From the IMG/VR virus record IMGVR_UViG_3300002054_000021, positions 77,864 through 141,863 of that record: a DNA stretch of 64,000 nt. One strand, 5' to 3'. Within the stretch, counting starts at the first letter, position 1. Every line of letters begins with the position of its first letter. Shown here in pieces: positions 18,579-62,578 of this stretch. The notes beneath the pieces were generated by a model. That model was not told the origin of the DNA. It was given only the letters and a program-made list of their open reading frames with translations, and made no database searches. The DNA is from a virus (lineage: Duplodnaviria > Heunggongvirae > Uroviricota > Caudoviricetes). The position numbers and the translations under genes are program-made.

Positions 18579-20150
18579 TTGGGGAAAAATAGAACTATAT
18601 CTCGCGATTTAGCAGAGAGAATAAGAGATTCTTGGGCTGAATCTTCATCATTAAAGGATGCGATAGCAAACGCAGGGTCGTCAACTACTGACGAGAGAAC
18701 TATGCGCAGGTATCGCAGGCAGACTGAAGAGTTGTTAGGTATTGAGCTTCCCGCTCACAATGCAAAATTTTCTACTCACAAAAGAACAGAGTGCGAGAGT
18801 ACTTTGGATATATCTGCAGCTAAAGAAAAAAAATCATTCATTATTACTTATTGTGTAAATAACTGTCCAATAAATTCAAAGTTTTTAGATTCATTGGAAG
18901 TTTTAGCTGAGGAGAATGATTCTCAAATACTTATAATTCCCCAAGCTTATAGAAATCCAGATGATTTGGCAAAGGTGGGATTTAAGGATTATAGGTATAA
19001 ATGGCCAGACAGGGTGAAAAAGTACATTCTGAATGAGGAGTTTAAGTTAGGCAACATGCTTGTTGTGTCTCCTATAGGTATAAAGCCGACAGTGAAAAAT
19101 CCTCTGTCTGGTAAAGATCCAAATGAAGGTAGAAAATCTGCCATATATGGGCACTCACAGGTCTCTATGATAACAGTCCCAACTCCATCGAAAATGGAGG
19201 CAAAGAGAGTGTATACGACTGGTGCTATATCTAGGGCTAGATATCCTAAATTAGATACAGGGAGATCGGCAGCATTCAATCATGTTATGGCGGCTTTATA
19301 TGTTCATATGGATGGCAATAATTTCCATACCTTAAATCTTCACTGGAGTGGCAGTGGATTTCATTTTCTTAACAAAAAAGTAACTCCAGATGGTATAGAC
19401 GATGCAGAGCCTATAAAGGCCCTGATACAGGGAGACTCCCATGCCGTGTGGAGTGATGATAAGGTTCTTAAATCTAGGGATAGGCTGATTGATATGATAG
19501 ACCCGCAGGTGCTCGGCTGGCATGACTTGCACGATCACAAGTATCAATCCCATCATGCTACTGTTACTGATAAAATAAGAATGGCGCTAAATAACGAATT
19601 CTTAGTTGAAAAAGAATTGCAATTATCATTGGACCTAATAAATGAAAAGGGCAAGGGTAGAAAAAATTTAATAATCGGATCTAATCACAATGACCACTTA
19701 GATAAGTGGCTAGATAAGTTTAAGGATAAAGAAGACCCACATAACGCCCTCTTCGCGAAAGAGCTTCACGCTGCTGTCATTAGGTCTGGTAAGCCAGCCT
19801 TTGAAGAATGGATGCATGATAAAGTTGAGGTAGATGTAGAATTTGTTGGTAGAAATGATTACTATACAATATCTGGAATAGATGTATCTCAGCATGGTGA
19901 TGTTGGTGGTAATGGATCTAGAGCTACGGCTAGAGGTTTTTCTAGGTACTCTTACAAGACTATTATAGGTCATTCTCATTCACCAAGAATAGAGAAGGGT
20001 TGCTATCAAATGGGGACATCATCAAAAAAAATGTCATATGTTAAGGGTTATTCTTCTTGGGCTGAGTGTGATTGTATAATATATCCAGACGGTAAAAGGA
20101 CTTTGGTTTTCTATACAAATGGAAAAAATATAGGGGATTTTTATGAATAA
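18579..20150 (+). CDS. protein with C-terminal calcineurin-like metallophosphoesterase motifs
   Basis: Motifs GDSH, GSNHNDH and GHSHSP. The N-terminal 280 aa are unassigned. Confidence 0.5.
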   Translation: MGKNRTISRDLAERIRDSWAESSSLKDAIANAGSSTTDERTMRRYRRQTEELLGIELPAHNAKFSTHKRTECESTLDISAAKEKKSFIITYCVNNCPINSKFLDSLEVLAEENDSQILIIPQAYRNPDDLAKVGFKDYRYKWPDRVKKYILNEEFKLGNMLVVSPIGIKPTVKNPLSGKDPNEGRKSAIYGHSQVSMITVPTPSKMEAKRVYTTGAISRARYPKLDTGRSAAFNHVMAALYVHMDGNNFHTLNLHWSGSGFHFLNKKVTPDGIDDAEPIKALIQGDSHAVWSDDKVLKSRDRLIDMIDPQVLGWHDLHDHKYQSHHATVTDKIRMALNNEFLVEKELQLSLDLINEKGKGRKNLIIGSNHNDHLDKWLDKFKDKEDPHNALFAKELHAAVIRSGKPAFEEWMHDKVEVDVEFVGRNDYYTISGIDVSQHGDVGGNGSRATARGFSRYSYKTIIGHSHSPRIEKGCYQMGTSSKKMSYVKGYSSWAECDCIIYPDGKRTLVFYTNGKNIGDFYE

Positions 20151-34451: not shown

Positions 34452-35272
34452 TTAGAGACAGGTATAATTATGATTACCAAGAGATTTCATTACTAAATGT
34501 TGAGGATTTTGTAATAGATTATATGCCTCCTTATAGTGATAGTGAGGCATTCAGGTACATTGAGAGTGAATTTTATAGGTCAAGAGTTCATAGAGGTTAT
34601 ACTGGGGACCCAAAATTCATACATCAAAGAGACGGTAAAAGCGCTTGGTATGTTTGGGAGGTAGATTTTTTCTCAAATTACTTCAAAGGTCCAAACAGAG
34701 GGGCTTTTAGGTCCAAAAGAGATTTTAATTCTATGCACCAGTATGATAAAAACTCTTATTCAACAAACAAAAATGATGTAATATCATCTTCTTCATACTT
34801 TAACATTATGTCAGATTATGTTGTTATTAAGATATCAGAATCTTTTGTAAACTCTGCAGTAATGTCAGTTGTTCCATCTAAAATATCTAGAGATTGCTAT
34901 AGATTTCCAAGGTCTTTAGATGATTTATTTTCTGAGGTTGGGTATTATTTCACTGAACGAATAAGAGGAATAACTGAATGCAATGATGTTTACAAGATAA
35001 TTGGCAGTACATTTATGCCTGCCGTTCCAGAAAACAGAATAAATATGAGATTAAGGACAGAAGATTATTTCAATCATGGATATCCAGTTTTATTTAAAAA
35101 CATAGATATGGCAGTTGATCAAATGAGTTGTATATATGAAATATTTTGCAGCAATATAGAAGGATGGGTTAGGAGTCACATTGATAGAAATCTCGGAAGA
35201 ATAGAGAGAAGTGTCGCTCAGATGGCATCAAATAATGATGGCTTTACTAAAATTCCAAGACTTGATAAATGA
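34448..35272 (+). CDS. hypothetical protein
   Basis: 274-aa ORF. Confidence 0.5.
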   Translation: MIRDRYNYDYQEISLLNVEDFVIDYMPPYSDSEAFRYIESEFYRSRVHRGYTGDPKFIHQRDGKSAWYVWEVDFFSNYFKGPNRGAFRSKRDFNSMHQYDKNSYSTNKNDVISSSSYFNIMSDYVVIKISESFVNSAVMSVVPSKISRDCYRFPRSLDDLFSEVGYYFTERIRGITECNDVYKIIGSTFMPAVPENRINMRLRTEDYFNHGYPVLFKNIDMAVDQMSCIYEIFCSNIEGWVRSHIDRNLGRIERSVAQMASNNDGFTKIPRLDK

Positions 35273-35532
35273 ATAAGGTGAATAATTACGAGGATTACTT
35301 AAAATTCGTTGTTGAAAATATAGAGCTTACCAAGAGCTTTGATATGTGGATATCAGCTATTGGTTCACATAGATATGTCGCATTAGTCAAAATTGGAACT
35401 AGGTATGAGGAGTATTCAGGATTCGTTGAAAACGAGTCGTTTTGCATATGCGGAGATATATTAGGTGATATTTGCAGAGAATCAGTAAGAATGGCAAATG
35501 ATTATTTATTAGAAAAAGGTAAAATCTCTTGA
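35269..35532 (+). CDS. DLW-motif small protein family, paralogue 1
   Basis: N-terminus YEDYLKFVVENIELTKSFDMWISAIG. Confidence 0.55.
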   Translation: MNKVNNYEDYLKFVVENIELTKSFDMWISAIGSHRYVALVKIGTRYEEYSGFVENESFCICGDILGDICRESVRMANDYLLEKGKIS

Positions 35533-35831
35533 CAGTAGGGCTAAAATATATAGATTATCTAAGTTTCGTTTGTGAAAATAAAGACATAATAGATGGAAAC
35601 GGATTATGGATATCGCTTGTAAATAACCATGTTTACTTTATAATTGGTGATGATTATATTGACGGAGAACATAGATGTTTAGAATCAGAAGATAAACATG
35701 TATTCTCTGGTAAGGTGTCATCAATTGGGAATAATATTTCACACGCATCGACTTTGATAAGTAGATTTAGGTCAAGGTTTGAAGATGAAAATTTATCTTA
35801 TGGAATATCATCAATGGAATATTATTTATAA
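35529..35831 (+). CDS. DLW-motif family, paralogue 2
   Basis: N-terminus YIDYLSFVCENKDIIDGNGLWISLV. Confidence 0.55.
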   Translation: MTVGLKYIDYLSFVCENKDIIDGNGLWISLVNNHVYFIIGDDYIDGEHRCLESEDKHVFSGKVSSIGNNISHASTLISRFRSRFEDENLSYGISSMEYYL

Positions 35832-36139
35832 TGACCGCTAAATATAAATATGAAACATACCTCACGAAAATGTCCATGCTTTTTGATATGGATATGTGTA
35901 CAGATGTTTGGGTTGATATATCTTCATTTAATAAACCGCATAGAGCTGAGTGTGTATATTTAATTAGAACTGATAGTAAGCATACTAGATTCCTAAGAAA
36001 CCGGAGAGATGGAATGGCAGCTCCTTGCGCTAGAGATATTTTATATTTAAACCAGAAGAATGTCGGTTTAGTAAATGGTAGGCTTTTAATGAAAACAAGT
36101 TATGATCTTGGCACTTCTTGCTTTTACAGTAATTATTGA
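35831..36139 (+). CDS. DLW-motif family, paralogue 3
   Basis: N-terminus YETYLTKMSMLFDMDMCTDVWVDIS. Confidence 0.55.
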   Translation: MTAKYKYETYLTKMSMLFDMDMCTDVWVDISSFNKPHRAECVYLIRTDSKHTRFLRNRRDGMAAPCARDILYLNQKNVGLVNGRLLMKTSYDLGTSCFYSNY

Positions 36140-36140
36140 T

Positions 36141-36464
36141 ATGGCGCATTACTTTGATTTACTACAGCTCTGTGACAAGATAAGGCGTATGAATTTGAAT
36201 AATGACTTATGGATTGAAGTGCTGCCAAATAGGGACGAGTTTCTTTTTGTGGCGCTAGTAGGCGTTGATTGTTCACTATCCAGAGGTTGGCATTGTAAAG
36301 AGGTTGAAGATTATGAAACCTTTGACATTATAATTAATCCAAAAAAATACATTCAGAACGGAAGAATGTTAGAGGTTGATAAGAGGCTACACGATTCTAT
36401 AATTGCGTCTAAATTAAGTGCTCTAAATACGGTATTGGGCGACAAATATTACATTAAGAAATAG
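36141..36464 (+). CDS. DLW-motif family, paralogue 4
   Basis: ATG at 36141 gives MAHYFDLLQLCDKI...NDLWIEVL. Overlaps upstream by TGATATG. Confidence 0.5.
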   Translation: MAHYFDLLQLCDKIRRMNLNNDLWIEVLPNRDEFLFVALVGVDCSLSRGWHCKEVEDYETFDIIINPKKYIQNGRMLEVDKRLHDSIIASKLSALNTVLGDKYYIKK

Positions 36465-36535
36465 TTGTATATCATTGATATATAAGGATATTTATAATTA
36501 TTACCTTTTAAGTTGGTTGCTTTAGGAGTTACAAA

Positions 36536-36787
36536 ATGTTTTCATCTTTGGAAAAAAAGAACATAAAAAAAGAAGTCTCTAGTTGGACAGAGGATCAAAG
36601 ATCTGAAGCTATGTCTTGGCTAAATAACGCATCTGCGTCTGCAAGGTCGAAAGCTTATGCATTCGAAAGAAATGGCTTTACTCACTCATATAATTCATGT
36701 ATAACAGAAGCTGTTAGGCTTGCAGATTTGAGAGAGCTTATATCTAAAGTGACACTTAAGAAGGGTAGTAAAAATGTCGGAAAGTAA
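36536..36787 (+). CDS. hypothetical protein
   Basis: 83-aa ORF. Confidence 0.4.
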   Translation: MFSSLEKKNIKKEVSSWTEDQRSEAMSWLNNASASARSKAYAFERNGFTHSYNSCITEAVRLADLRELISKVTLKKGSKNVGK

Positions 36788-37094
36788 ACTCAAGGGACCG
36801 ATAAGTCCAAGTGATATTGCTGCAGCAAAAGCAGAATTTATACCAAATTGTGTTTTCGATGCGTTTAATGAACTTATAGCTAAAAACTACACTAACGGAA
36901 GGGCGAAGGTTGAGCAGAGTGATGTTAAGTCTTTACTTGCCGCCAATATGGGTGAATCTTGGATGGAAGATAACTTCTCTTTTAACATGTTGAATGTTGA
37001 GGAGTCTTATCGTGAAAAGGGTTGGAGTGTTACTTATGATAAACCAGCGTATAATGAGTCATATTCAGCTTCATTTTTATTTAAGGCTCAGTAA
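36774..37094 (+). CDS. hypothetical protein
   Basis: 106-aa ORF. Confidence 0.4.
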   Translation: MSESKLKGPISPSDIAAAKAEFIPNCVFDAFNELIAKNYTNGRAKVEQSDVKSLLAANMGESWMEDNFSFNMLNVEESYREKGWSVTYDKPAYNESYSASFLFKAQ

Positions 37095-37286
37095 TTGAAA
37101 AGATACACTTATACTCAACTTCTAGAATTTTGTGTTAAATTTTCAAATGTAACGTCTAACAGGGATTTATGGATAGGGACATACAAAATAAAAAGCGGTT
37201 TGTCTGTTGTCAATTATTTGCTTATTTGCAACCCAAAGATTGGACATTTAAGACACCCAAGTTCGTCAGAGTCACCCCCTTTTTGA
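37095..37286 (+). CDS. DLW-motif family, paralogue 5 (short, possibly decaying)
   Basis: TTG start. N-terminus YTQLLEFCVKF...RDLWIGTY. Confidence 0.4.
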   Translation: MKRYTYTQLLEFCVKFSNVTSNRDLWIGTYKIKSGLSVVNYLLICNPKIGHLRHPSSSESPPF

Positions 37287-37445
37287 TATGAATACTAGAA
37301 TTGCACTACCAGATATAACGATTACCTCTATAAAGAGGTATAGCTCTATGATGAATGAAAGCAATGGGAGATTTTTGGATAATTTGTGATTATAATAATA
37401 CAAAATATTGGCTTATTGTAGGGCTCACTATTATGGGATATCATT

Positions 37446-37769
37446 ATGTCAGGTAGACGCTTAAAAAGTAAGTATGAATATATAGACTATTTGTCTTTTT
37501 GCAATGATTTTCATGAGGAAAATCCAAATACTGAATTGTGGATCATAACAAATCTTAATAGACCTCATCCAACTAATGTCGAGACTGTTTTATTGTGTCA
37601 GGAGGGTTTAAGGCACCTCTACTCTAATAGCTGTATGGGCTTCTTGACTTTTGTTCAAATAAAGAAAGATATTAAAAACTGCAGTAGAAAAGAGATAAGC
37701 CAATCTATAGATAAATTAAAATTAGATATTGAGGCTTCAGAAATTAGAAGGTTAAATCGTGAGGTCTAG
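37446..37769 (+). CDS. DLW-motif family, paralogue 6
   Basis: N-terminus YIDYLSFCNDFHEENPNTELWIITN. Confidence 0.5.
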   Translation: MSGRRLKSKYEYIDYLSFCNDFHEENPNTELWIITNLNRPHPTNVETVLLCQEGLRHLYSNSCMGFLTFVQIKKDIKNCSRKEISQSIDKLKLDIEASEIRRLNREV

Positions 37770-37989
37770 CGTAAATTATCAGAGACTTCTTGAAAATATA
37801 ATCAGGATATCTGATGAAAATATGGGTTGCGATCTATGGATTGATACTAGTGGATGGGGAGGGAATATTGCGTTAGTTGCAATAGAAGATCTAGATTGTA
37901 GCACACCTATTCCAGACAGAGATAGACGTAAATGGATGCCATATTTCAATAAAGACGGACCTGTAAGGATGTCTAGTTTTAGTCTGTAA
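37759..37989 (+). CDS. DLW-motif family, paralogue 7
   Basis: N-terminus YQRLLENIIRISDENMGCDLWIDTS. Confidence 0.5.
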   Translation: MRSSVNYQRLLENIIRISDENMGCDLWIDTSGWGGNIALVAIEDLDCSTPIPDRDRRKWMPYFNKDGPVRMSSFSL

Positions 37990-38003
37990 AGTAGGAGTTA
38001 ATA

Positions 38004-38288
38004 ATGCTAAATACATCATATACATTAAATATAATATCGTCATTTATAATGGGCATTGTGCTCGGAGTTATCATATATTCTAAATTTGGGTACGTAGAAA
38101 ATTCTGAAATCATTAACCCTCCCTTAGTTGACAGGCTTATAAAAGAGTGCCAAGATATGCCTTGGAAGTACGAGCCTCCTATAAGGCCAAGTTGCAAAGA
38201 TATGTCCTATCTTAAATATAACGAGCTTATGTCAAAAGACTGCATTATGTGCTCATTGTACAATATTGATATTGAGGGTAATCAATGA
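38004..38288 (+). CDS. small membrane protein
   Basis: N-terminal transmembrane segment IISSFIMGIVLGVIIY. Confidence 0.45.
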   Translation: MLNTSYTLNIISSFIMGIVLGVIIYSKFGYVENSEIINPPLVDRLIKECQDMPWKYEPPIRPSCKDMSYLKYNELMSKDCIMCSLYNIDIEGNQ

Positions 38289-38575
38289 CATTAGATAGTG
38301 ATAAAATAGATTCTTTTATATCAAAATTACAACTAAGGTCTGATGATTTTAAGTCTCAAAATATGAGAAAATTTAGCCAAGCTAGAGACTCTTATAGAGT
38401 AGAGTTGGATCAGGCAATAAAGCTGTTAACGCAACTCAATATTGAGTATAAAAAAGATTTGGCGATCAATCATTATTTAGATAGTACTTGGTGTTGCTCT
38501 GGACATGATTGCGGATGCATGGGTGTGTCAAGAAGAGAAGTTATTATGCATCGCGCAAATCTATCAGATCTATGA
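38285..38575 (+). CDS. hypothetical protein
   Basis: 96-aa ORF. Confidence 0.4.
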   Translation: MTLDSDKIDSFISKLQLRSDDFKSQNMRKFSQARDSYRVELDQAIKLLTQLNIEYKKDLAINHYLDSTWCCSGHDCGCMGVSRREVIMHRANLSDL

Positions 38576-38922
38576 ATAATAAGATACCATATATAAAAAT
38601 TCTTGAGCTAATGTCTGACTATTATAGGGAGGGAAATGCCGTAAATGTTTGGGTAAAATATATATGCATAAGGTCAGCAAGTAGGTTTAATTATTGCGCG
38701 GAGATTTCTGTTCAAAGATCTTCCCCTAATCCGCTACCTTTAAAATTTTCAAGGCAAGCTTCTAGGCCAGCTAATATACCAGAAGTCATGATGAAGGGGT
38801 GTGCTGGATTTGAGGTAAATACAGTTGCATATGACGAAGTTAATGACGGGTTAGTAAGTGCCAATCAGTTCATTGCGTCAGCTAGGCGTAGAGCTAGAAA
38901 AACATCTTATAGACTGAGGTGA
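38572..38922 (+). CDS. DLW-motif family, paralogue 8
   Basis: ATG at 38572 gives MNNKIPYIKILELMSDYYREGNAVNVWVKY. Overlaps upstream by ATGA. Confidence 0.5.
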   Translation: MNNKIPYIKILELMSDYYREGNAVNVWVKYICIRSASRFNYCAEISVQRSSPNPLPLKFSRQASRPANIPEVMMKGCAGFEVNTVAYDEVNDGLVSANQFIASARRRARKTSYRLR

Positions 38923-39043
38923 TGTGATTCACCTTTTCTACCCCCAAATTATGCGATTTTTAACCACCCTATAGGTATAAAAATAATAACACCTTGACAT
39001 TAGGGCAAATATGGTGTTATAGAGTTGAAAATATCAAGATAAT

Positions 39044-39316
39044 GTGTTTATTCTGGGGGTTGATATAGACATGGTTTCTATAGAGAATAGGTATATTGAG
39101 CTATTAACTTTCCTAGTTGGCCATAAAGGTAATAACGAGGGTTTGGATATTTGGATTGATTATGACGCTGATAGCAAAAATATTAAAATTATAACAGAAA
39201 AAATTGATGGATCAAAGCCTAATTGTTGGCAGAGAAGGCTAGATTGGGTTTACTATATGGACGTTACAAGTTGCACAAGTTTTGATTTTAACTATGATCA
39301 TAAGGAGATATTTTAG
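39044..39316 (+). CDS. DLW-motif family, paralogue 9
   Basis: N-terminus YIELLTFLVGHKGNNEGLDIWIDYD. Alternative start at 39071. Confidence 0.5.
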   Translation: MFILGVDIDMVSIENRYIELLTFLVGHKGNNEGLDIWIDYDADSKNIKIITEKIDGSKPNCWQRRLDWVYYMDVTSCTSFDFNYDHKEIF

Positions 39317-39592
39317 ATGTCAGATAAAATGAGAGACGCCTTCATAGCTTACAGTAAAGATGAGGATGAAAAAAACAGGATTTCCTCGATACATGATTTT
39401 AGTGCAGGTTGGAAATATTGTAGAGAGTTAGGGGTGTCTGTTGATAGTGCCAGACTTACCAAAAGAGAGATGTTTGCAGTTATGGCTATGCAGGGTTTTT
39501 GTGCTAAAGATACAGGTCTTGACAGCAATATTTCTAGTAGGGCATTACGCATCGCAGACGACCTTATTAAAGAGTTGGAGAAGGTTGATTAA
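39317..39592 (+). CDS. hypothetical protein
   Basis: 91-aa ORF. Confidence 0.45.
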   Translation: MSDKMRDAFIAYSKDEDEKNRISSIHDFSAGWKYCRELGVSVDSARLTKREMFAVMAMQGFCAKDTGLDSNISSRALRIADDLIKELEKVD

Positions 39593-39779
39593 CTCTTACA
39601 AAATTATATTGGAAAAGATATGCGAGCTGTCAGATCAAGAAGATGATATGTGGGTGCATATAGATCATGATGGGCATTACTTTTTCATCTTTCGTGGATC
39701 AGCTTTTTCTAAACTAACGCAAGAAGAAAAAAGGCAGGGAATGCTTGCTTCCCCCGTCTGTTTCAGGAAAAATATCTAA
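39585..39779 (+). CDS. DLW-motif family, paralogue 10 (short)
   Basis: TTG at 39585 after GGAGAAGG. N-terminus INSYKIILEKICELSDQEDDMWVHID. Confidence 0.4.
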   Translation: MINSYKIILEKICELSDQEDDMWVHIDHDGHYFFIFRGSAFSKLTQEEKRQGMLASPVCFRKNI

Positions 39780-39830
39780 TCCAGAGAAAGTATCAATACG
39801 AGTAAAGCTATCAGATAGACCAATAGATAA

Positions 39831-39842
39831 TTTTCGCATCTT
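39831..39842 (+). repeat. TTTTCGCATCTT motif copy
   Basis: Ends 5 nt before the ATG at 39848. No Shine-Dalgarno sequence. Confidence 0.6.
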
Positions 39843-39847
39843 TACAC

Positions 39848-40174
39848 ATGAATAACGTCATGAACATATACAGAGAAATATTGTGTGGAATAATGGATAA
39901 TAATGACGGCATTAATGATATGTGGGTGCAAGTCCATAAAAGTTTTTTTCTTATCCACCACGAACAAGGATACAAAGACGTAGCAATTAAAAGGCTCGAT
40001 CTCCCAATGAGAAATCAAATGCGTATTAAATTAGTCAATGGAGTTCCGTATAGGTCCAATTATATAATCTCTGATGACGGTGTAAAATTGTCTTCAAGAT
40101 CCATGCAGGAAGATGACATGGGGAAAATAGTTTCAATATCTTACAAGAAAATTGCTACTTCAAATGAAAAGTGA
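39848..40174 (+). CDS. DLW-motif family, paralogue 11
   Basis: N-terminus YREILCGIMDNNDGINDMWVQVH. Confidence 0.55.
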   Translation: MNNVMNIYREILCGIMDNNDGINDMWVQVHKSFFLIHHEQGYKDVAIKRLDLPMRNQMRIKLVNGVPYRSNYIISDDGVKLSSRSMQEDDMGKIVSISYKKIATSNEK

Positions 40175-40496
40175 AGAAATAAAATATATCGATGTATTGA
40201 GCAAAGTTGTCGAGCTTAGTAATGATCCGCAAGTAAAGGATGTGTGGGTGAGGTACGGATTAGATAAAAAGTATTTATCGACTGAAGAATTTTTAACTGT
40301 AATTGAAATGCACGACAATGAAGATATGATAATTGGGGATAGGAGGAGAAGTTTTTTAAATACGGCTGTATTGATAAGTAATAGAGGCTCCTTTAAAAGA
40401 GGGTGCCTTTTCTCAGATCATAAATTGTGGAAAAAAATTCCACAAAAAAACAAAATACTTGGCATTTTAGAGTTAAAAGATATCACTGAGGGGTGA
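40164..40496 (+). CDS. DLW-motif family, paralogue 12
   Basis: ATG at 40164. N-terminus YIDVLSKVVELSNDPQVKDVWVRY. Confidence 0.5.
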   Translation: MKSEEIKYIDVLSKVVELSNDPQVKDVWVRYGLDKKYLSTEEFLTVIEMHDNEDMIIGDRRRSFLNTAVLISNRGSFKRGCLFSDHKLWKKIPQKNKILGILELKDITEG

Positions 40497-40497
40497 G

Positions 40498-40779
40498 ATG
40501 AAATTTAAGTATATTGATATATTGAGTTTAATGGTTGAAAATTTTGACCCAAATTATGATTTATGGGTGTCTATAAATCATTACCATGTAAGCGTTTACT
40601 ATGAGAGGGGATTCACAGAGATATCAGATTCTGAAAGACGGATGGATTCGCTAGTTACAGCTACTCGCTTCACCAATCTTTCTAAAGATCATTATTATAA
40701 AAAAATATATAAACCAACAAATCAAGGAAGTCTAACTAAACATGAAGTATTGAGCTATTCGAAGTTAATCAGCGATTGA
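40498..40779 (+). CDS. DLW-motif family, paralogue 13
   Basis: N-terminus YIDILSLMVENFDPNYDLWVSIN. GAGGGGTGAG RBS. Confidence 0.55.
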   Translation: MKFKYIDILSLMVENFDPNYDLWVSINHYHVSVYYERGFTEISDSERRMDSLVTATRFTNLSKDHYYKKIYKPTNQGSLTKHEVLSYSKLISD

Positions 40780-40836
40780 CATCAGGTTAAATCACATGTA
40801 ATAATATTTTCTATATTTATTCAAATTGAGTTCGAT

Positions 40837-41820
40837 ATGCCAGAAGAAGAAAAAGAGCGTGTACGCATTGATCATATGACTATAGATTACAGTTCGCATA
40901 ATGTAGGTCAAGGTAGGCTTATAGGTTATGATATGGGTATTCGAGACAGGACTATGATAGCTACTAGTACAATAGGTGCATACACATCTCAAATGGCTCA
41001 CTATCAAAGGTCTATGCATGAGGCAGCTCAGCAATTTTCAATGACGATGAATAGTGGTATGCATGAACGCCTCATAGAGATTTTTACAAACAGCACAAGA
41101 AATCATAACAGTGTATCAAGTGAGGGCCAAAATACATTCAAACGAAATAAGGGTTATTTTTCTAATTCTAATCTTATTTGGGAAGAGTATAGAAATCATA
41201 TAAAAAGAAATAAACCTGAAGATCTAGATTTTAAAACTATTTCAGAGGGCATAACGAGTAAAGACTATATACCATATGTCAAAAAAAGAATAGATTATAT
41301 GACTAGCGCGTCCGATGTCAGGTCGCACATTAACGGACTTAATAGTTCTATTAAATATATCGGTCATAGTAATGGTTACATCACGACAGACATGAAAAAT
41401 ATTTGGGAAGAACTAATAGCATCTTCTGATAATGCAATTGATGACTTAAAAAAATCTTTTGGTATAGATATTTTACCCATTATTAAAATGGTGAGGGCTA
41501 TAACCCCAATACCATCATATGCAAGTTTGTTAAACTTAACTAATTTTGTTCAACATCTGATAGGTGCGAGGTTTTACAATGAGGACTATAACTTCAAAAT
41601 AAATCCTTCTGCAAGCGGAAAGTTCTCATTTAAACCTCACAAGCCTCACATGTATTTAAATATTGAAATAGGAAGTCTGCTTGTAATTATAGACTGTAAG
41701 TCTTCAATTAGTAATTGGGAGCCAGTAGGGCTTTATGTTGCTCACGATAAAGATCCTGAAAAACACAAGAGTGAGGACAAAGCAAGGTCTGAACGAGGGC
41801 TTCTTGCAATGTACCCCTGA
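40837..41820 (+). CDS. hypothetical protein
   Basis: 327-aa ORF. Confidence 0.5.
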   Translation: MPEEEKERVRIDHMTIDYSSHNVGQGRLIGYDMGIRDRTMIATSTIGAYTSQMAHYQRSMHEAAQQFSMTMNSGMHERLIEIFTNSTRNHNSVSSEGQNTFKRNKGYFSNSNLIWEEYRNHIKRNKPEDLDFKTISEGITSKDYIPYVKKRIDYMTSASDVRSHINGLNSSIKYIGHSNGYITTDMKNIWEELIASSDNAIDDLKKSFGIDILPIIKMVRAITPIPSYASLLNLTNFVQHLIGARFYNEDYNFKINPSASGKFSFKPHKPHMYLNIEIGSLLVIIDCKSSISNWEPVGLYVAHDKDPEKHKSEDKARSERGLLAMYP

Positions 41821-41973
41821 GGCAGAAACCATAGGACAAAGTTCATGAATAAACACAGTATTGAAAATTACGAAAAAAAAATAGAGGAAGAAGATGTCAG
41901 CTAAGTTAGATGAAAGGCCTGTTAATTGTAGGTTTAGATTTAAGGACGAAGGTAAGCCTTATGGAAAGTCTGG

Positions 41974-42192
41974 GTGCAGAGTTGTAAATTGCGGCGGGTC
42001 TTTAACCCCAAATGCAATTATAGTAATGTAAAATTCAAACCCCCAACGACAGCACAAACAAAAAACCAAATTCAAGACTTGATAGATCGTCACAAGTCGG
42101 ATGGGAAAAATTCAGAAAAATGGCAAGATGAATATAGACAGCTACATTTAGATACACTTGAAGCTTTGAGGAGATATAAGGAGCTATTGTGA
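41974..42192 (+). CDS. hypothetical protein (start uncertain)
   Basis: GTG start. Overlaps an alternative 45-codon ORF at 41894. Confidence 0.3.
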   Translation: MQSCKLRRVFNPKCNYSNVKFKPPTTAQTKNQIQDLIDRHKSDGKNSEKWQDEYRQLHLDTLEALRRYKELL

Positions 42193-42473
42193 CAATAATT
42201 CCATACAAAAATATATTATCTGTTATGGTTGAATTATCTAAAGATGAATCTGTTGAGGATGTGTGGTGCGATTTGACTAATAAATCTTGTCTTTATGGCT
42301 CAATTCCAATTATTAGACAGATGGGGTCGTCAAGGTTATTAGATGATGAGCATAAAAGAAGACATTATCTAAGTAATTATATAGTGCATTCATCAGGGTA
42401 CACAGTGCAAAAGAGCGGCATACACATTGAAGGTCAAGCGCCTTGGTTAAATATGTCTAGGATTATATTTTAA
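42189..42473 (+). CDS. DLW-motif family, paralogue 14
   Basis: GTG after AAGGAG. N-terminus YKNILSVMVELSKDESVEDVWCDL. Confidence 0.5.
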   Translation: MTIIPYKNILSVMVELSKDESVEDVWCDLTNKSCLYGSIPIIRQMGSSRLLDDEHKRRHYLSNYIVHSSGYTVQKSGIHIEGQAPWLNMSRIIF

Positions 42474-42489
42474 ATACGATTAATAAATT

Positions 42490-42843
42490 ATGATAAATGA
42501 ATATAGATTGATACTTGAGAAGATATGTAGCATTGAGGGCAGTCAAGACCTATGGGTAGTGCCTTATAAGAATAAAGGGTGCGAAGATTTAAAAGTAACC
42601 ATATACAACGAAAATGGAATTAATAATATGCCATATTCTGCAAGAAGGCAAGATACACCATTTTTTTATTCTGAGACAAAGGCAAAATATAATGTGGCAT
42701 ATAGATTAGATTATGACGTTTCCGAAGATGGTCTTAATTTGGTTTCTGTAAAATATAGAGGTATAATACATAATGGAATGAATTTTGATGAAGAAGATTG
42801 CTATAAGGGTATATCTCCTATTCAATTACCAAATAAAAGATAG
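42490..42843 (+). CDS. DLW-motif family, paralogue 15
   Basis: N-terminus YRLILEKICSIEGSQDLWVVPY. Confidence 0.55.
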   Translation: MINEYRLILEKICSIEGSQDLWVVPYKNKGCEDLKVTIYNENGINNMPYSARRQDTPFFYSETKAKYNVAYRLDYDVSEDGLNLVSVKYRGIIHNGMNFDEEDCYKGISPIQLPNKR

Positions 42844-42851
42844 TGATTTAA

Positions 42852-43370
42852 ATGATAAACCTGTATAAGTACACACTTCAGAAGATAGTTGAGTATGACT
42901 TAGACGGAGATTTGTGGGTTTACCTCGACAAGGAAAGGGGAATTGTGTCAATATACAATGAGGATTGCCTATATTCTGTAAGGGAGCAGGATAGAAGGAG
43001 GGCTATAGCTACACACTCTCTGAGGCATAATAGGAGAAAACAATCTAATTCATTTAGATCTGATAGGCATCCAGAAGAGTATGATTATCATGACGAGGAT
43101 TTCAAAGCGGGGTATGAGGCAAAGTCACAAGAAGTGAAGTGGTATGAGATCAATGATCCTATAGTTGAAAAATGGAAAGATGGGCGCAAAGTTGACCTAA
43201 TGATTAACAACATATCCCCCAATAACACAAAAATAACCAAAAGAAGAGTTGTTGATATGTATTATTGTCCAAAAATTAAAGCATGGAGAGGTGATTATTA
43301 CATACCGTCATATATAGATATAACACACATCATGCTTCCTATGTTATTAAGTGATAATAATGCCAAGTGA
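42852..43370 (+). CDS. DLW-motif family, paralogue 16 (long basic C-terminal extension)
   Basis: N-terminus YKYTLQKIVEYDLDGDLWVYLD. Confidence 0.55.
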   Translation: MINLYKYTLQKIVEYDLDGDLWVYLDKERGIVSIYNEDCLYSVREQDRRRAIATHSLRHNRRKQSNSFRSDRHPEEYDYHDEDFKAGYEAKSQEVKWYEINDPIVEKWKDGRKVDLMINNISPNNTKITKRRVVDMYYCPKIKAWRGDYYIPSYIDITHIMLPMLLSDNNAK

Positions 43371-43764
43371 AATATCTAAAAAACTAACAAACATATCTAA
43401 AAAGATGAGAGTTGAACTCCTGCCAATAGTCATACCTGCTAAGAATTACTGGGAATATGAATATAAGGACTTATTGGCTTTAGTGGTTAATGTAAAGAAT
43501 TATATCGAAAATGCTGGTTTTTTATTAAATGATATTATATTTGTTGAATCAGAATATGGTCATGCTGATCGCGGGAATCCTGTTGTCATAATAAGGTTCA
43601 ACCATTATTACGTATTGGACTTCTTTAACGGAGGGGGTCAAGTTCACATAGAGATATCACAATATGACGATAACTTGTCTCACAACCGTATAGCTATGAG
43701 AAATTGTCAATTACAATATGTAAGTGTCGGAGATAAGTTTGAATTAAGGCTTATCAAGTATTAA
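43351..43764 (+). CDS. family-B small protein, paralogue 1
   Basis: Motif NYWEYEYKDLLALVVNVKNYIENAGFLLNDIIFV. Related to the genes at 46295 and 46642. Confidence 0.5.
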   Translation: MIIMPSEISKKLTNISKKMRVELLPIVIPAKNYWEYEYKDLLALVVNVKNYIENAGFLLNDIIFVESEYGHADRGNPVVIIRFNHYYVLDFFNGGGQVHIEISQYDDNLSHNRIAMRNCQLQYVSVGDKFELRLIKY

Positions 43765-45341: not shown

Positions 45342-45890
45342 TTGGTGGTTATGAAGGAATTGGGTAAAAATATTGATGAAAAGTGGGAGATTGCCAAAAA
45401 GAGTACTTTAGTGTCTATCTATGACCTAATTTATATTTTTGACGTCGATATTACTGGGTTTTTGGATTTGATTCCAAGTTTTCGCAATAAGATTACATAT
45501 TTGCAATTTTTACAGATTTCCAGAATATTTAATGATATTATCGATAAACGATATGAAGACTACGATTGCAATCTAAAATTCAATCATAACTCAAGCGCCA
45601 AGATTAATATCTTAGGTGATCCAGAATGTATGTCCGAGATATATATAAACATGGAGTTCTCTAACCTCCTTGTAGTGATAGAGCTTAACTGTGTTTTCGA
45701 GAGTCCTAATGTAAATTGGTTTGTCAGCGATGTTTCTGCGTGCTATCTATATGGGGACGATTTGAAAGATAGTGTGCCTTATTATGGTTATAAGGACAGA
45801 ACGCTTTGGCCTATGTATGATTCGTATCACAATAAGGAAAATGATGGCGGTATGACTGTAGATTATAAAAGATATTATGAGGCGAAGTAA
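45342..45890 (+). CDS. hypothetical protein
   Basis: 182-aa ORF. Confidence 0.45.
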   Translation: MVVMKELGKNIDEKWEIAKKSTLVSIYDLIYIFDVDITGFLDLIPSFRNKITYLQFLQISRIFNDIIDKRYEDYDCNLKFNHNSSAKINILGDPECMSEIYINMEFSNLLVVIELNCVFESPNVNWFVSDVSACYLYGDDLKDSVPYYGYKDRTLWPMYDSYHNKENDGGMTVDYKRYYEAK

Positions 45891-46298
45891 ATGAGATATC
45901 CCAACTCAAAAGACACCGCAATTCTAGATATTATGGGAAAAGACCTTATTTTCTCTATTTTATCTATAAAGGATCATGGAGAATTGTCTTATATCTACAT
46001 GTTGAGCGTTATAAATGCAGCTGATATTCATACTAATGGAGAGGTGGGTGTAAAAGTTAATAAGTTTGTAGATAGCTCGTTCATTAATATTGTCTATCCT
46101 TATCATGTAGCGGAGGTTAACTTTTCAGCAAGTTCTGATAGAAAGTCGTGGAATTTTGCTTATGTGAGATTTATGGAGTGTACTAAATGCTGGTCAAAAA
46201 TGGATACTAGAGCTGAGATGACTATAAATATCAGTGAGCATGGAATCAACAATTCTGTAATATATAGAGAGTCTGACTTAAAAGGTATGATGTCATGA
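45891..46298 (+). CDS. hypothetical protein
   Basis: 135-aa ORF. Confidence 0.45.
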   Translation: MRYPNSKDTAILDIMGKDLIFSILSIKDHGELSYIYMLSVINAADIHTNGEVGVKVNKFVDSSFINIVYPYHVAEVNFSASSDRKSWNFAYVRFMECTKCWSKMDTRAEMTINISEHGINNSVIYRESDLKGMMS

Positions 46299-46651
46299 AC
46301 TCCGAAAAGCTTAATACAATTAGGGATGAGCTTAATTTAAAAGACCTTATAAAGATATTTCCTGTTGGAGAACCTGCAAACTATATGCAATCTCTAATGT
46401 TAACTGTAAATTTAAAGAAATTTTTAGAATCAAAAGGCGTGAAGGTTAACGATATATTTTTCTGGGGTGGTAATTATGAAGTCTTAATTATAAGAATAGA
46501 TGATAGTTTTTTAATTGAATATGATCATGAGAGAGTGTGTTTGACATGGAGTTATAGTTATGATGCGATTAAAAAGATTTTAAGAGACTGTAAATCTGTT
46601 TATGAAACAGGATCTGTTATCCATGCTAAACTAGGACAAAAATGTATATAG
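46295..46651 (+). CDS. family-B small protein, paralogue 2
   Basis: Motif NYMQSLMLTVNLKKFLESKGVKVNDIFFW. Confidence 0.5.
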   Translation: MNSEKLNTIRDELNLKDLIKIFPVGEPANYMQSLMLTVNLKKFLESKGVKVNDIFFWGGNYEVLIIRIDDSFLIEYDHERVCLTWSYSYDAIKKILRDCKSVYETGSVIHAKLGQKCI

Positions 46652-47118
46652 ATAGCTCTAAGACAAAGAAAGCCACTGACCGTTGTCATAAATTTATCCT
46701 TAAATATTATGATAGGACAGCATTTGCGTTTAATTTTGATGATTATCGTATTGATACAAGTATGATAATTGATACAAGTATGATAAATAACAGAAAGATA
46801 ATAATTCCTAATTACACTCAAGCTCTTAAGTCGCTTTTATTTATTATGAATAAATTTGAAGAGCTGAACATGCCAGTTTATGATATAATATATGATATAG
46901 AGCATTATATAGTGGTTTGCTGTATTACCGAGCACGAGGGTATTTATCTATCTCTCACAAAAGAAAGAAGCCCAATGATGTATTTTAGCATATACAATCT
47001 GAATGAACTGGGCAGAAATATGTGGTTTAGATACCCTGAGCTTGAAATTGATGATGTAGTGGAGATGAAAGGTATAAATATTATAAATAAATTCGCATCT
47101 TCAGCCGTGTCCACTTGA
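46642..47118 (+). CDS. family-B small protein, paralogue 3
   Basis: Motif NYTQALKSLLFIMNKFEELNMPVYDIIY. Confidence 0.45.
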   Translation: MYIDSSKTKKATDRCHKFILKYYDRTAFAFNFDDYRIDTSMIIDTSMINNRKIIIPNYTQALKSLLFIMNKFEELNMPVYDIIYDIEHYIVVCCITEHEGIYLSLTKERSPMMYFSIYNLNELGRNMWFRYPELEIDDVVEMKGINIINKFASSAVST

Positions 47119-48038: not shown

Positions 48039-48545
48039 ATGGATATGAAATTAGATTTCTATATTAATAAAATTGGCAAAATACTCCCTATGCTGAAAGA
48101 CTTTCCAACAACTGGGAAGGTTGAGCGCAGTTATAAGGAGATGATCGAAACATCCATGATGGCAGAGAAGATATTTAAAGACTTGGGATATGATTACATA
48201 GATATTATAGACACTAAAGGCTCAGCTCTTATTTTATGTCACCTTGGCAACGGATTCTGCGTATCCATAAATACATCTGTTCAAACTAGAGTTATAATGG
48301 TTGTTTATCAATTTGACAGGCAGTGTGATTTGGATCACCTAAAGAAGATAAGTAGGCAGTCTTTCGGAATGTTAAATGGTAATGGTGACGTTATTAGGGT
48401 AACGGGTGGTTATAAATTTGATGGTGTTCATGAACCTATCATAAGGACTGCCCCTAGGGACGAATATGATGACCTTATAGAGGGTTATAATCGCAGACTG
48501 GATATAGAGTTGGACTTTCCTTTAGACTGGGATGCCCCTCTATAA
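48039..48545 (+). CDS. hypothetical protein
   Basis: 168-aa ORF. Confidence 0.5.
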   Translation: MDMKLDFYINKIGKILPMLKDFPTTGKVERSYKEMIETSMMAEKIFKDLGYDYIDIIDTKGSALILCHLGNGFCVSINTSVQTRVIMVVYQFDRQCDLDHLKKISRQSFGMLNGNGDVIRVTGGYKFDGVHEPIIRTAPRDEYDDLIEGYNRRLDIELDFPLDWDAPL

Positions 48546-48557
48546 TTTTCGCATCTT
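48546..48557 (+). repeat. TTTTCGCATCTT motif copy
   Basis: Followed by GACATGTCTCCATTTT, the same extension as the copy at 47700. Confidence 0.6.
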
Positions 48558-48680
48558 GACATGTCTCCATTTTCATATAAAGATATAATATCTGAGCAAA
48601 GGGTTCGACTCCCTTATTGGTGAACAATACATGTTAAGTAACTTATTCGACTTAAGGCGAAGTTGTGGAACTGCTCAGTT

Positions 48681-48728
48681 TTTTCGCATCTTCAACCGTG
48701 TCTAGTTTTCGCATCTTCAACCGTGTCT
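48681..48728 (+). repeat. tandem direct repeat 2 x TTTTCGCATCTTCAACCGTGTCT, then T8
   Basis: Two 23-nt units at 48681 and 48706. Confidence 0.65.
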
Positions 48729-48960
48729 GTTTTTTTTGAAAAAAGTGAGGCTCGAACAAGAATACATGAACGAGCCTCTGGCCCGTTTTGAGAAAACGCA
48801 ATTAGGGCCAATAATTTATATAGGGATAATTTTGTGATTTGTCAAGATGGAGCGAGTGACAAGAAAAACTAATGACTAAAAAACCTGCCACTCGCTGTCA
48901 CCATCTGTGCGACACTATATATAACCACAAAAAAAATTTGAAGTCAATGCAAAATAACTG

Positions 48961-48989
48961 TTGACGTATTATTTTATTTTTGTTATGAA
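48961..48989 (+). promoter_or_regulatory. sigma70-like promoter TTGACG-17-TATGAA for infC
   Basis: Lies 47 nt upstream of the IF3 start. Confidence 0.4.
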
Positions 48990-49035
48990 TGAGTCGTTCA
49001 ATAAAGAAAAGGTAAAACATGTTGAAAGTAAAACG

Positions 49036-49518
49036 ATGAGCAAGCCGCTTATTAATGAGATGATTACGGCGCGGGAAGTGTTGTTAATTCAAGAAGATGG
49101 TAAAAGCGATGGGGTGTGCTCTATCTTAGACGCATTAGAATATGCTAAAAGTGTCGAGTTAGATCTTGTTCAAGTGAACAATAACGCAACCCCTACATGC
49201 CGAGTTATGGATTATTCTCGCAAAAGCTTTCAGAAGAAGAAAAACAAAGGTGGTGGCCGCAAAATTAAATTGAAAGAAATTAAACTGCGTCCTAATATCT
49301 CTCAACATGATCTAGACACTAAGTTTAGAAGCATGGATAAGTTTTTCAGTAAGGGAGACCGTGTTAAAATTAGCGTTCAGTTCCGTGGCCGTGAAATATC
49401 TCATATCGAAAAAGGCAATGAGCTTATTGAAAAAATAAAAGAGAGATTCTCTGAAATCAATATTCATGCCGACTCTAAGCGTGATGGAAAAACTATCACA
49501 ATGGTTCTATCTCCATAG
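49036..49518 (+). CDS. infC: translation initiation factor IF-3 homologue
   Basis: INEMITAREV, CRVMDY and IKLKEIKLRP...VQFRGREISH...TITMVLSP align with the N- and C-domains of bacterial IF3. ATG at 49036 is the first in-frame ATG after the promoter. The track's 48961 start includes the promoter. Confidence 0.7.
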   Translation: MSKPLINEMITAREVLLIQEDGKSDGVCSILDALEYAKSVELDLVQVNNNATPTCRVMDYSRKSFQKKKNKGGGRKIKLKEIKLRPNISQHDLDTKFRSMDKFFSKGDRVKISVQFRGREISHIEKGNELIEKIKERFSEINIHADSKRDGKTITMVLSP

Positions 49519-57795: not shown

Positions 57796-57796
57796 G

Positions 57797-61768: not shown

Positions 61769-61786
61769 CCATTTTTGGAAATTATT

Positions 61787-62565: not shown

Positions 62566-62578
62566 TTTAGGGCGTGAA

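What the first reader, a model, noticed from the sequence alone, without database searches (positions are those of the whole stretch)
35269..43370. Array of 16 divergent small paralogues sharing an N-terminal DLW motif
Sixteen ORFs of 64-172 aa lie within 8 kb, in 5-6 runs broken by a few unrelated genes. All share an N-terminal block of about 40 aa with the pattern [YF]-x-x-[IL]-L-x-x-[IVM]-(6-12 residues)-D-[LMV]-W-[IV]-hydrophobic strand. Examples are YIDYLSFVCEN...GLWISLV, YQRLLENIIRI...DLWIDTS and YRLILEKICSI...DLWVVPY. The C-termini are unrelated or strongly diverged. Many members are translationally coupled to the next gene by ATGA or TGATATG overlaps, and two are short or decaying. A family this expanded and diversified inside one phage suggests a diversifying selection arms race. 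Candidate roles are host-takeover, anti-defence or superinfection-exclusion effectors that each target a host protein variant. I do not recognise the motif as a described family. This is the strongest candidate in the window for an undescribed system.
Basis: seen in the sequence. Interest (0 to 1): 0.85.

Follow-up and report, generated by a model that had tools for sequence, protein, structure and literature searches.

The report
Sixteen-gene orphan paralogue array in phage
An uncultivated 208-kb phage carries 16 small neighbouring genes that share only a ~40-residue N-terminal helix-plus-hairpin module and match nothing in about 15 billion public proteins; the family is real and undescribed, but its function can only be guessed.

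Summary
Sixteen + strand ORFs (63-172 aa, 35269-43370) share an N-terminal module: Y-x3-L on a helix, then [D/E/N/G]-[LMVI]-W-[VIC] on a strand. Y, L and W are invariant, and Y-to-W spacing is 20, 18 or 17 residues. Iterative and leave-one-out profile searches of the window's 519 six-frame segments recover all 16 and nothing else. The motif regex hits 14 times, all in the array, against 0.04 in shuffles. Conservation is at the protein level.

The C-terminal halves are statistically unrelated, except m11-m15. Pfam, PHROGs, NCBIfam, PADLOC, PDB sequences, INPHARED and an exhaustive HMMER scan of 1.84 billion representatives give only self-hits from one 208-kb metagenomic phage. This is limited: left-out true members score only 12-33 bits.

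The genes are tightly packed among recombination genes, IF3, rIIA/B and tRNAs. Similarity falls with distance along the array, and no recent duplicates exist.

Best guess (confidence 0.35): old tandem duplications produced cytoplasmic early or middle accessory proteins, with a common scaffold or adaptor module and different C-terminal parts that bind host targets. An arms race, anti-defence activity and packaging into the virion are all untested.

The parts
35269..35532 (+). m01, 87 aa, family member (YEDYL...FDMWI)
   Evidence: ATGA overlap with the upstream 274-aa gene
35529..35831 (+). m02, 100 aa, TTG start, member (YIDYL...NGLWI; Gly replaces Asp)
   Evidence: closest paralogue is m01
35831..36139 (+). 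m03, 102 aa, member (YETYL...TDVWV)
   Evidence: TAATG junction with m02
36141..36464 (+). m04, 107 aa, member (YFDLL...NDLWI); start moved to the internal ATG
   Evidence: (seed m06)
37095..37286 (+). m05, 63 aa, TTG start, short member: the module plus a 19-aa tail
   Evidence: not called as a gene in the public collections; decay not demonstrated
37446..37769 (+). m06, 107 aa, member (YIDYL...TELWI)
37759..37989 (+). m07, 76 aa, GTG start, member (YQRLL...CDLWI)
   Evidence: 11-nt overlap with m06
38572..38922 (+). m08, 116 aa, most divergent member (YIKIL...VNVWV), pI 9.8
   Evidence: seed m06; E 1.9e-4; ATGA overlap with the upstream gene
39071..39316 (+). m09, 81 aa, member (YIELL...LDIWI)
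39585..39779 (+). m10, 64 aa, TTG start preceded by GGAGAAGG, short member (YKIIL...DDMWV)
   Evidence: not called as a gene in the public collections
39848..40174 (+). m11, 108 aa, member (YREIL...NDMWV); the only member preceded by the TTTCGCATCTT motif (39832-39842)
   Evidence: (weakest, E 6e-3); its C-terminal hairpin resembles that of m15
40164..40496 (+). m12, 110 aa, member (YIDVL...KDVWV)
   Evidence: closest paralogue is m14
40498..40779 (+). m13, 93 aa, member (YIDIL...YDLWV); first AlphaFold model
42189..42473 (+). m14, 94 aa, GTG start, member (YKNIL...EDVWC)
   Evidence: GTGA overlap with the upstream gene
42490..42843 (+). m15, 117 aa, member (YRLIL...QDLWV); best AlphaFold model (pTM 0.58)
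42852..43370 (+). m16, 172 aa, longest member (YKYTL...GDLWV) with a long unrelated C-terminal extension
36536..37094 (+). two interspersed non-member genes (83 and 106 aa)
   Evidence: no family signal and no annotation
38004..38575 (+). two interspersed non-member genes: a 94-aa protein with a hydrophobic N-terminal stretch, and a 96-aa protein with a CCSGHDCGC motif that weakly matches phrog_19268
39317..39592 (+). interspersed non-member gene (91 aa, weak match to phrog_2201, function unknown)
40837..42192 (+). interspersed non-member genes: a 327-aa orphan whose C-terminal part is paralogous to 45342-45890, plus two small ORFs
39832..39842 (+). single copy inside the array of the over-represented intergenic motif TTTCGCATCTT, a candidate phage promoter or regulator site, ending 5 nt before the m11 ATG

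Best explanation
The array is a lineage-specific multigene family of small, soluble, cytoplasmic accessory proteins of an uncultivated ~208-kb tailed phage. It arose by old, local tandem duplications followed by deep divergence.

Shown:
- All members keep an N-terminal module of about 40-45 residues.
- This module is predicted to be an amphipathic helix (Y, L and hydrophobic residues at i, i+3/4, i+7/8) packed against a β-hairpin that starts with D-[LMV]-W.
- The conserved residues are almost all hydrophobic or aromatic.

Inferred: these residues are core-forming, so the module is a folding scaffold, a dimerisation unit, or a common docking unit rather than a catalytic site.

Shown: the C-terminal halves are mutually unrelated and vary widely in charge (whole-protein pI 4.8-9.8) and length.

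Inferred: the C-terminal halves carry the individual specificities.

Shown: the genes are arranged so that they could be co-translated from long polycistronic messages.

Inferred:
- They are expressed early or middle in infection, together with the flanking recombination genes, IF3 and rII genes.
- Each protein acts stoichiometrically by binding a different host (or phage) macromolecule. This would modulate host takeover or counter-defence.
For: - The family is real and under protein-level constraint.
- The N-terminal module is conserved while the C-terminal halves are unrelated.
- AlphaFold gives helix 2-14, β 21-27 and β 34-40 at pLDDT 83-88 in both models. In m15 a C-terminal hairpin (residues 71-89, pLDDT 83-88) completes a four-stranded sheet.
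- The invariant residues are aromatic or aliphatic; the near-conserved Asp (13 of 16) is the only conserved polar position, so no catalytic-type motif is evident.
- No long hydrophobic stretch is visible in the translations, GRAVY is negative in all 16 and pI spans 4.8-9.8.
- 15 of 25 junctions overlap or abut.
- Neighbours are non-structural: T5 A1-like, UvsX-like, methyltransferase, HNH, AAA ATPase, SPFH and HTH proteins upstream; IF3, rIIA, rIIB and tRNAs downstream.
- Sequence distance rises with physical distance (Mantel r 0.295; 10 of 5000 permutations reach it). The nearest paralogue lies within three array steps for 11 of 16 members.
- Small phage proteins that act by binding a host defence component are an established class. 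Examples are T4 internal protein IPI* and T4 TifA (PMC3012670, PMC9391042).
Against: - There is no direct evidence of expression, timing, target or phenotype.
- Only 3 of 16 members have a strict Shine-Dalgarno core, against 20 of 39 long ORFs. Expression could therefore be low.
- The whole 32-52 kb region is orphan sequence from one genome, so there is no comparative support.
- Sigma-70-like promoter matches in the region are barely above the shuffle expectation (71 against 57 ± 8.5).
- The model rests on only 16 sequences (mean pLDDT 66-68).
Confidence: 0.35

Rival explanations
1. These are packaged (internal or ejected) virion proteins. The shared N-terminal module would be a capsid- or scaffold-targeting signal that loads 16 different small cargo proteins into the head for co-injection. 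This is the logic of the T4 internal proteins, which share only a capsid targeting sequence.
For: - The architecture is the same: conserved N-terminus, unrelated C-termini.
- The module always sits at the extreme N-terminus, with Tyr at residue 4-8 in 15 of 16 members.
- By my reading of the sequences, 11 of 16 members have a [LIV]-x-E tripeptide within the helix. From memory, this resembles the T4 prohead-protease site.
- The array is on the same strand as the tail genes at 1-18 kb.
Against: - The conserved block is about 40 residues and is predicted to be a folded helix plus hairpin with an invariant Trp in a strand. It is not a ~10-residue peptide followed by a conserved cleavage site.
- The [LIV]-x-E tripeptide is absent from 5 members and is not at a fixed position.
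- The array is separated from the structural block by about 17 kb of DNA-metabolism genes and lies next to IF3, rII and tRNA genes.
- Sixteen internal proteins would be unprecedented.
Confidence: 0.13
2. These are nucleic-acid-binding regulators: small RNA- or DNA-binding proteins that tune phage or host gene expression. [quoted passage not shown]
For: - The topology is an N-terminal helix followed by antiparallel strands.
- Several members are basic (pI 8.7-9.8 for m03, m05, m08 and m11).
- Many have an R-R or K-R pair about 20-25 residues after the Trp (visible).
- A phage IF3 and tRNAs lie nearby, showing investment in translation control.
- A family of dissimilar T4 early proteins with an LSm-like fold has been proposed (PMC12152347).
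Against: - Five members are acidic (pI 4.8-4.9).
- The R-R feature has no statistical support at family level.
- There is no HTH, zinc-ribbon or other known nucleic-acid-binding signature.
Confidence: 0.12
3. This is largely dispensable, slowly decaying duplicated sequence: the remains of an ancient amplification with little present function.
For: - Two members are truncated to the module plus about 20 residues (m05, m10).
- Shine-Dalgarno sequences are weak.
- There are no recent duplicates.
- The family is found in only one genome.
Against: - All 16 reading frames are intact in an AT-rich genome where stop codons are frequent.
- The three invariant residues and the fixed 20/18/17 spacing persist although synonymous sites are saturated. 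This requires continued purifying selection.
- Overlapping start and stop codons are maintained.
- The putative frameshift remnant after m05 is not significant.
Confidence: 0.1
4. These are superinfection-exclusion or immunity-type proteins, for example immunity proteins against diverse toxins or competing phages. Tandem arrays of divergent paralogues are typical of that class.
For: - The array is a tandem set of divergent small paralogues.
- It lies near rIIA/rIIB, which from general knowledge are linked to exclusion phenomena.
- A small ORF with a hydrophobic N-terminal stretch is interspersed at 38004-38288.
Against: - No member shows a long hydrophobic stretch or signal-peptide-like N-terminus in the translations (GRAVY negative in all), whereas, from general knowledge, most known exclusion proteins act at the envelope.
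- There is no match to any immunity-protein family in Pfam or to any defence family in PADLOC.
- No toxin genes are adjacent.
Confidence: 0.08

Closest known systems
T-even phage internal proteins (IPI, IPII, IPIII and their polymorphic relatives) with a shared capsid targeting sequence
   Same: Several small proteins in one phage share only an N-terminal element and have unrelated, fast-evolving remainders. At least one (IPI*) is an anti-restriction protein (PMC3012670).
   Different: From memory, the T4 element is about 10 residues and is followed by a protease site. Here the shared block is about 40 residues and is predicted to be a folded helix plus hairpin. There is no sequence similarity, no evidence of packaging, and the array has 16 members lying among non-structural genes.
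Adaptive gene amplification ('genomic accordion'): T4 dmd-tifA segmental amplification and poxvirus K3L
   Same: Tandem multiplication of a small accessory gene in a virus. In those cases it is driven by a host defence (PMC9391042).
   Different: Those arrays are recent and nearly identical at the DNA level, and they are flanked by microhomologies. Here there is no DNA repeat longer than 31 nt, paralogues are about 20-30% identical and synonymous sites are saturated. If an accordion ever operated, it is ancient and fixed.
T4 LSm-like early protein family (GoF, MotB.1, Frd.2)
   Same: Small early phage proteins with dissimilar sequences, a common predicted N-terminal β-rich domain and variable C-terminal parts. 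Their function is also unknown (PMC12152347).
Cystatin-like / NTF2-like α+β rolls, including small phage inhibitors such as Ugi-2 and AcrIIA11

Membership tests
Any curated protein family (Pfam-A, PHROGs v4, NCBIfam 20, PADLOC 2.0) | A profile-HMM match at or near the curated threshold | tested here: not met
   Pfam gave no hit with E below 0.01 for any of the 16 members. PHROGs, run on the first ten members, gave nothing better than E 0.085. PADLOC gave no family at all. The best NCBIfam hit was E 0.087, for one member.
Proteins with a solved structure (sequence level) | A profile match to any PDB chain | tested here: not met
   hmmsearch with the A1 profile against 177,635 distinct PDB sequences gave 0 hits at E of 10 or less.
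T4-type internal proteins (CTS-bearing) | Shared N-terminal element with otherwise unrelated sequences | tested here: met
T4-type internal proteins (CTS-bearing) | A short targeting peptide (~10 aa) followed by a conserved prohead-protease cleavage site (L/I-x-E in T4; recalled from memory) | tested here: inconclusive
   The conserved block is about 40 aa and is predicted to be folded. By my reading of the sequences, a [LIV]-x-E tripeptide occurs in the helix of 11 of 16 members but not at a fixed position. The phage's protease and its specificity are unknown.
T4-type internal proteins (CTS-bearing) | Presence in the virion and ejection into the host | not testable with these tools
   This needs particle proteomics. 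The phage is known only from metagenome assemblies.
LSm-like phage early proteins (GoF/MotB.1/Frd.2) | A five-stranded, strongly bent antiparallel sheet with Hfq/Sm/SH3-like structural neighbours | tested here: not met
Recent adaptive gene amplification (accordion) | Near-identical tandem DNA repeats | tested here: not met
   The longest direct repeat is 31 nt at 71% identity. Third-codon-position identity is 0.325 against 0.286 expected by composition.
Anti-CRISPR / anti-defence loci | Homology or a confident fold match to a known inhibitor, or an adjacent Aca-type HTH regulator in the same operon | tested here: inconclusive

The most novel reading that the evidence does not exclude
The ~40-residue helix-hairpin module would be a common delivery or docking domain, and the array would be a cassette library of 16 different C-terminal effector peptides sent to one destination. 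That destination could be the capsid interior for co-injection, or a single host hub protein. This would be a phage counterpart of polymorphic effector systems, built on a fold-orphan adaptor and so far seen in one phage lineage.
Probability: 0.15. Interest if true: 0.75.

Novelty: new variant of a known kind. Interest (0 to 1): 0.45.

Why it matters
Large phages carry many orphan genes, and lineage-specific paralogue expansions are one of the few sequence-only clues to where a phage is investing in host interaction. This array is an unusually clean case. It has sixteen intact copies, and one conserved 40-residue module is joined to unrelated tails. It has no relative in about 15 billion public proteins at detectable similarity.

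If the module proves to be a targeting or docking unit, it would give a compact, transferable tag and a set of natural effector cargos. If the proteins are inhibitors, each is a probe for a host process or a defence system. In either case the family can be synthesised and screened.

The limits are severe. There is one metagenomic genome, the host is unknown, and there is no expression data.

Tried and rejected
1. Near-DNA search of the 8.1-kb block against INPHARED: no match. tblastn with the module consensus found nothing; tblastn with m15 gave only two chance hits at E = 3.
2. Word-indexed searches of 5.8 billion clusters with the full profile and with the N-module profile, and exhaustive HMMER over 1.84 billion representatives: only self-hits. 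Cluster 'variants' were only alternative start calls in three assemblies of the same genome.
4. IMG/VR search with the flanking 274-aa gene and the embedded 327-aa gene: no relatives. The 327-aa protein is also an orphan in the 5.8-billion-cluster collection.
5. Search for the array in distant relatives: 23 IMG/VR jumbo-phage loci carrying the AAA-ATPase homologue (about 26-36% identity) were translated in six frames and scanned with the family HMM. The best hit was E 0.31.
8. Hypothesis that downstream genes (43360-43764, 46295-46651, 46642-47118, 48039-48545, which look like Y-x-x-L-L...D-I-I-F) are distant members: hhalign E 0.22, rejected. ORF 45891-46298 is repeatedly the best non-member (E 0.0016-0.25) but never significant.
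9. Hypothesis that the C-terminal halves share an R-R motif and a β3-β4 hairpin across the family: not supported statistically, except for m11-m15.
11. Hypothesis that the shared block reflects a DNA or RNA element rather than a protein: rejected by codon diversity, the codon-position profile and the lack of DNA repeats.
12. Rfam scan: only tRNAs, and nothing in the array.
13. Literature search for the sample accession: nothing found.

Full report
WHAT IS THERE

The window comes from a tailed phage.
- The first 18 kb encode tail proteins: sheath, tape measure, and baseplate hub and wedge.
- Next come a T5 A1-like protein, RecA/UvsX-like proteins, a DNA methyltransferase, a metallophosphoesterase, an HNH endonuclease, an AAA ATPase, an SPFH/Band-7 protein and an HTH protein.
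- From about 32 to 52 kb there is a long run of small orphan genes. After it come IF3, rIIA, rIIB and tRNAs.
- Public assemblies containing the same sequence are 208,360 nt (JGI) and 208,476 nt (ENA), plus a 23-kb Logan contig that is 100% identical to window 32189-52473.
- No cultured phage matches the array at the DNA level, and proteins from elsewhere in the window find only distant relatives (about 27-35% identity).

Sixteen + strand ORFs between 35269 and 43370 share an N-terminal block.
- After I corrected four starts (m04, m08, m10 and m12), the invariant Tyr lies at residue 4-8 in 15 members and at residue 12 in m06.
- Tyr, the Leu four residues later, and a Trp are invariant. The Trp is preceded by Asp in 13 of 16 members.
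- The Tyr-to-Trp distance is exactly 20 residues in 11 members, 18 in m10, m11 and m13, and 17 in m15 and m16.

Tests against chance:
- jackhmmer over all 519 stop-to-stop segments of the window collects all 16 members from three seeds. It collects nothing from the other 503 segments.
- Profiles built from 15 members find the omitted one at E 2.7e-9 to 6e-3. In 15 of 16 cases it ranks directly after the training set.
- A regular expression for the motif matches 14 times, all in the array and on the + strand. The mean in shuffled sequence is 0.04.

The signal is at the protein level.
- The invariant Leu is encoded by five different codons.
- Pairwise nucleotide identity in aligned module columns is 0.373, 0.455 and 0.325 at codon positions 1, 2 and 3. 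Composition alone predicts 0.287, 0.311 and 0.286.
- The longest DNA repeat in 14 kb is 31 nt at 71% identity.

THE C-TERMINAL HALVES

My first impression from the alignment was that a basic R-R pair and a second hairpin were shared. I tested this directly.
- Leave-one-out profiles of the C-terminal parts never find the omitted member.

m05 and m10 are short (63 and 64 aa). The idea that m05 is a frameshifted remnant did not survive a shuffle test.

ORGANISATION AND HISTORY

- Members occupy 4.8 of the 8.1 kb. They form five runs, interrupted by eight non-member ORFs, mostly orphans.
- Fifteen of 25 gene junctions overlap or leave at most 1 nt. They include ATGA, TTGA, GTGA and TAATG junctions.
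- Only 3 of 16 members have a strict Shine-Dalgarno core, against 20 of 39 long ORFs of the window. This fits translational coupling, or possibly low expression.
- Sequence distance between N-modules increases with physical distance (Mantel Spearman r 0.295; 10 of 5000 permutations reach it). The nearest paralogue lies within three positions for 11 of 16 members.
- Together with the absence of DNA-level repeats, this points to old local tandem duplications. It does not point to an active amplification.

REGULATION

One GC-containing motif, TTTCGCATCTT, is strongly over-represented in the window.
- It has 21 matches with at most 1 mismatch, against 1.9 expected, and 19 are on the + strand.
- Its extended consensus is AATTTTCGCATCTTCA.
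- Exact copies lie in intergenic gaps of the non-structural part: 28585, 39832, 47701, 47984, 48547, 48682, 48707, 55059, 58862, 62647 and 62684. None lies in a gap of the tail-gene block.
- Inside the array there is one copy, ending five bases before the ATG of m11.

I read the motif as a candidate early or middle promoter or a regulator site. This is inference only. Sigma-70-like matches are not clearly above expectation.

HOMOLOGY

- There is no Pfam, PHROGs, NCBIfam or PADLOC family, and no PDB sequence match.
- The family profile found only this genome's own proteins in the 5.8-billion-cluster collection and in the exhaustive scan of 1.84 billion representatives. The N-module profile gave the same result in the 5.8-billion-cluster collection.
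- Cluster 'variants' are alternative start calls.

An important caveat applies. Genuine members score only 12-33 bits when left out. That is far below what a database of this size needs for significance. Equally divergent relatives in other phages would therefore be invisible.

A targeted search with a small search space also found nothing. It covered 23 IMG/VR jumbo-phage loci around the ATPase homologue, and the best hit was E 0.31. Those phages are only about 26-36% identical in the ATPase. The embedded 327-aa gene is also an orphan. The phage simply has no sequenced close relative.

STRUCTURE

- For m13, AlphaFold with the 16-sequence alignment gives mean pLDDT 66 and pTM 0.38. For m15 it gives mean pLDDT 67.8 and pTM 0.58.
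- Both models agree on the module, at pLDDT 82-88: helix 2-14, strand 21-27 and strand 34-40.
- In m15 a confident C-terminal hairpin (residues 71-89) completes a four-stranded sheet. A low-confidence 30-residue loop lies between the second and third strands.
- The conserved residues follow an i, i+3/4, i+7/8 spacing on the helix, and the Trp opens the first strand. Apart from the Asp they are aromatic or aliphatic, so I infer that they form a hydrophobic core.
- BFVD gives nothing. There is no Hfq/Sm-like neighbour.

INTERPRETATION

The most economical reading is a lineage-specific family of small soluble proteins.
- Their common head is a folding, dimerisation or docking module.
- Their different tails carry individual specificities.
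- They are expressed from long polycistronic messages in the non-structural, probably early or middle, part of the genome.
- They act by binding host or phage macromolecules.

My confidence is 0.35.

The most interesting rival is suggested by the head-conserved, tail-variable architecture. [quoted passage not shown] Against it, the module is four times longer, is predicted to be folded, lacks a fixed cleavage motif, and lies far from the structural genes.

Other rivals are nucleic-acid-binding regulators (compare the T4 LSm-like early family, PMC12152347), immunity or exclusion proteins, and decaying duplicates. The last is contradicted by sixteen intact frames and invariant residues despite saturated synonymous sites.

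An ongoing gene accordion of the T4 tifA type (PMC9391042) is excluded by the lack of DNA repeats.

'Diversifying selection' cannot be tested without orthologues or population data.

VERDICT

This is a real, statistically robust and undescribed protein family, arranged as a 16-member array in one uncultivated 208-kb phage. The phenomenon of paralogue expansion of small accessory genes in large phages is known. The family and its head-conserved, tail-variable architecture are new. Function is unknown, and the evidence available here cannot go beyond context. Interest is moderate (0.45).

Noticed in passing
window 28585, 39832, 47701, 47984, 48547, 48682, 48707, 55059, 58862, 62647, 62684 (exact copies); 21 sites with at most 1 mismatch: The intergenic motif TTTCGCATCTT (extended AATTTTCGCATCTTCA) is over-represented about 11-fold: 21 sites against 1.9 expected, 19 of them on the + strand. 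It often follows a stop codon directly and lies 5-40 nt before the next start. It is absent from the gaps of the tail-gene block. It is a candidate phage-specific promoter or regulator site. The 16-mer gave only single matches per locus in IMG/VR.
   Followed up: partly
window 48985-49518 (+): Phage-encoded translation initiation factor IF3 (Pfam IF3_N + IF3_C; phrog_9787, E 5.8e-37). It is preceded by a 415-nt gap (48546-48960) that carries three copies of the motif above and a T-arm-like GGTTCGACTCCC. Neither ARAGORN nor Rfam calls an RNA there.
   Followed up: partly
window 43351-43764 and 46295-46651 (+); possibly 46642-47118 and 48039-48545: A second paralogue pair (jackhmmer E 1e-26 to 3e-29). 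Its Y-x-x-L-L...G...D-I-I-F pattern looks superficially like the DLW family. Profile-profile comparison with the 16-member family is not significant (hhalign E 0.22).
   Followed up: yes
window 40837-41820 (C-terminal third) and 45342-45890 (+): A third paralogue pair (jackhmmer E 8.5e-47). The 327-aa gene that interrupts the array has a shorter copy 4 kb downstream. The 327-aa protein has no homologue in 5.8 billion clusters.
   Followed up: partly
window 45891-46298 (+): This 135-aa ORF is repeatedly the best-scoring non-member for the family profile (E 0.0016-0.25 in leave-one-out runs) and lacks the Trp. It could be a very divergent seventeenth member or chance.
   Followed up: partly
window 38285-38575 (+): A 96-aa interspersed protein with a Cys-rich motif WCCSGHDCGCMG that matches phrog_19268 and phrog_28167 (unknown function) only over that motif.
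   Followed up: no
window 1615-1703 (+), 61695-61771 (+), 62570-62644 (+), 62784-62856 (-): Four tRNA genes: Cys-GCA, Arg-TCT, Met-CAT and Leu-TAG. The Cys tRNA is unusually long (89 nt) and sits alone upstream of the tail genes. The Leu tRNA is on the minus strand, in a window that is almost entirely + strand.
   Followed up: no
window 18579-20150 (+) and 55513-58759 (+): A T5 A1-like protein (phrog_1745, E 3e-102; best relatives at about 32-35% identity in Xanthomonas and Stenotrophomonas jumbo phages) and an rIIA/rIIB pair. The host of this phage is unknown. About half of the long ORFs have a Shine-Dalgarno core, so the host probably uses SD-dependent initiation.
   Followed up: partly
whole window: GC skew is positive in 31 of the 32 2-kb bins, turning negative only in the last bin (62-64 kb). 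Nearly all genes are on the + strand. GC drops to 0.33-0.35 across the orphan-gene region (34-48 kb), against 0.36-0.41 in the tail block.
   Followed up: no
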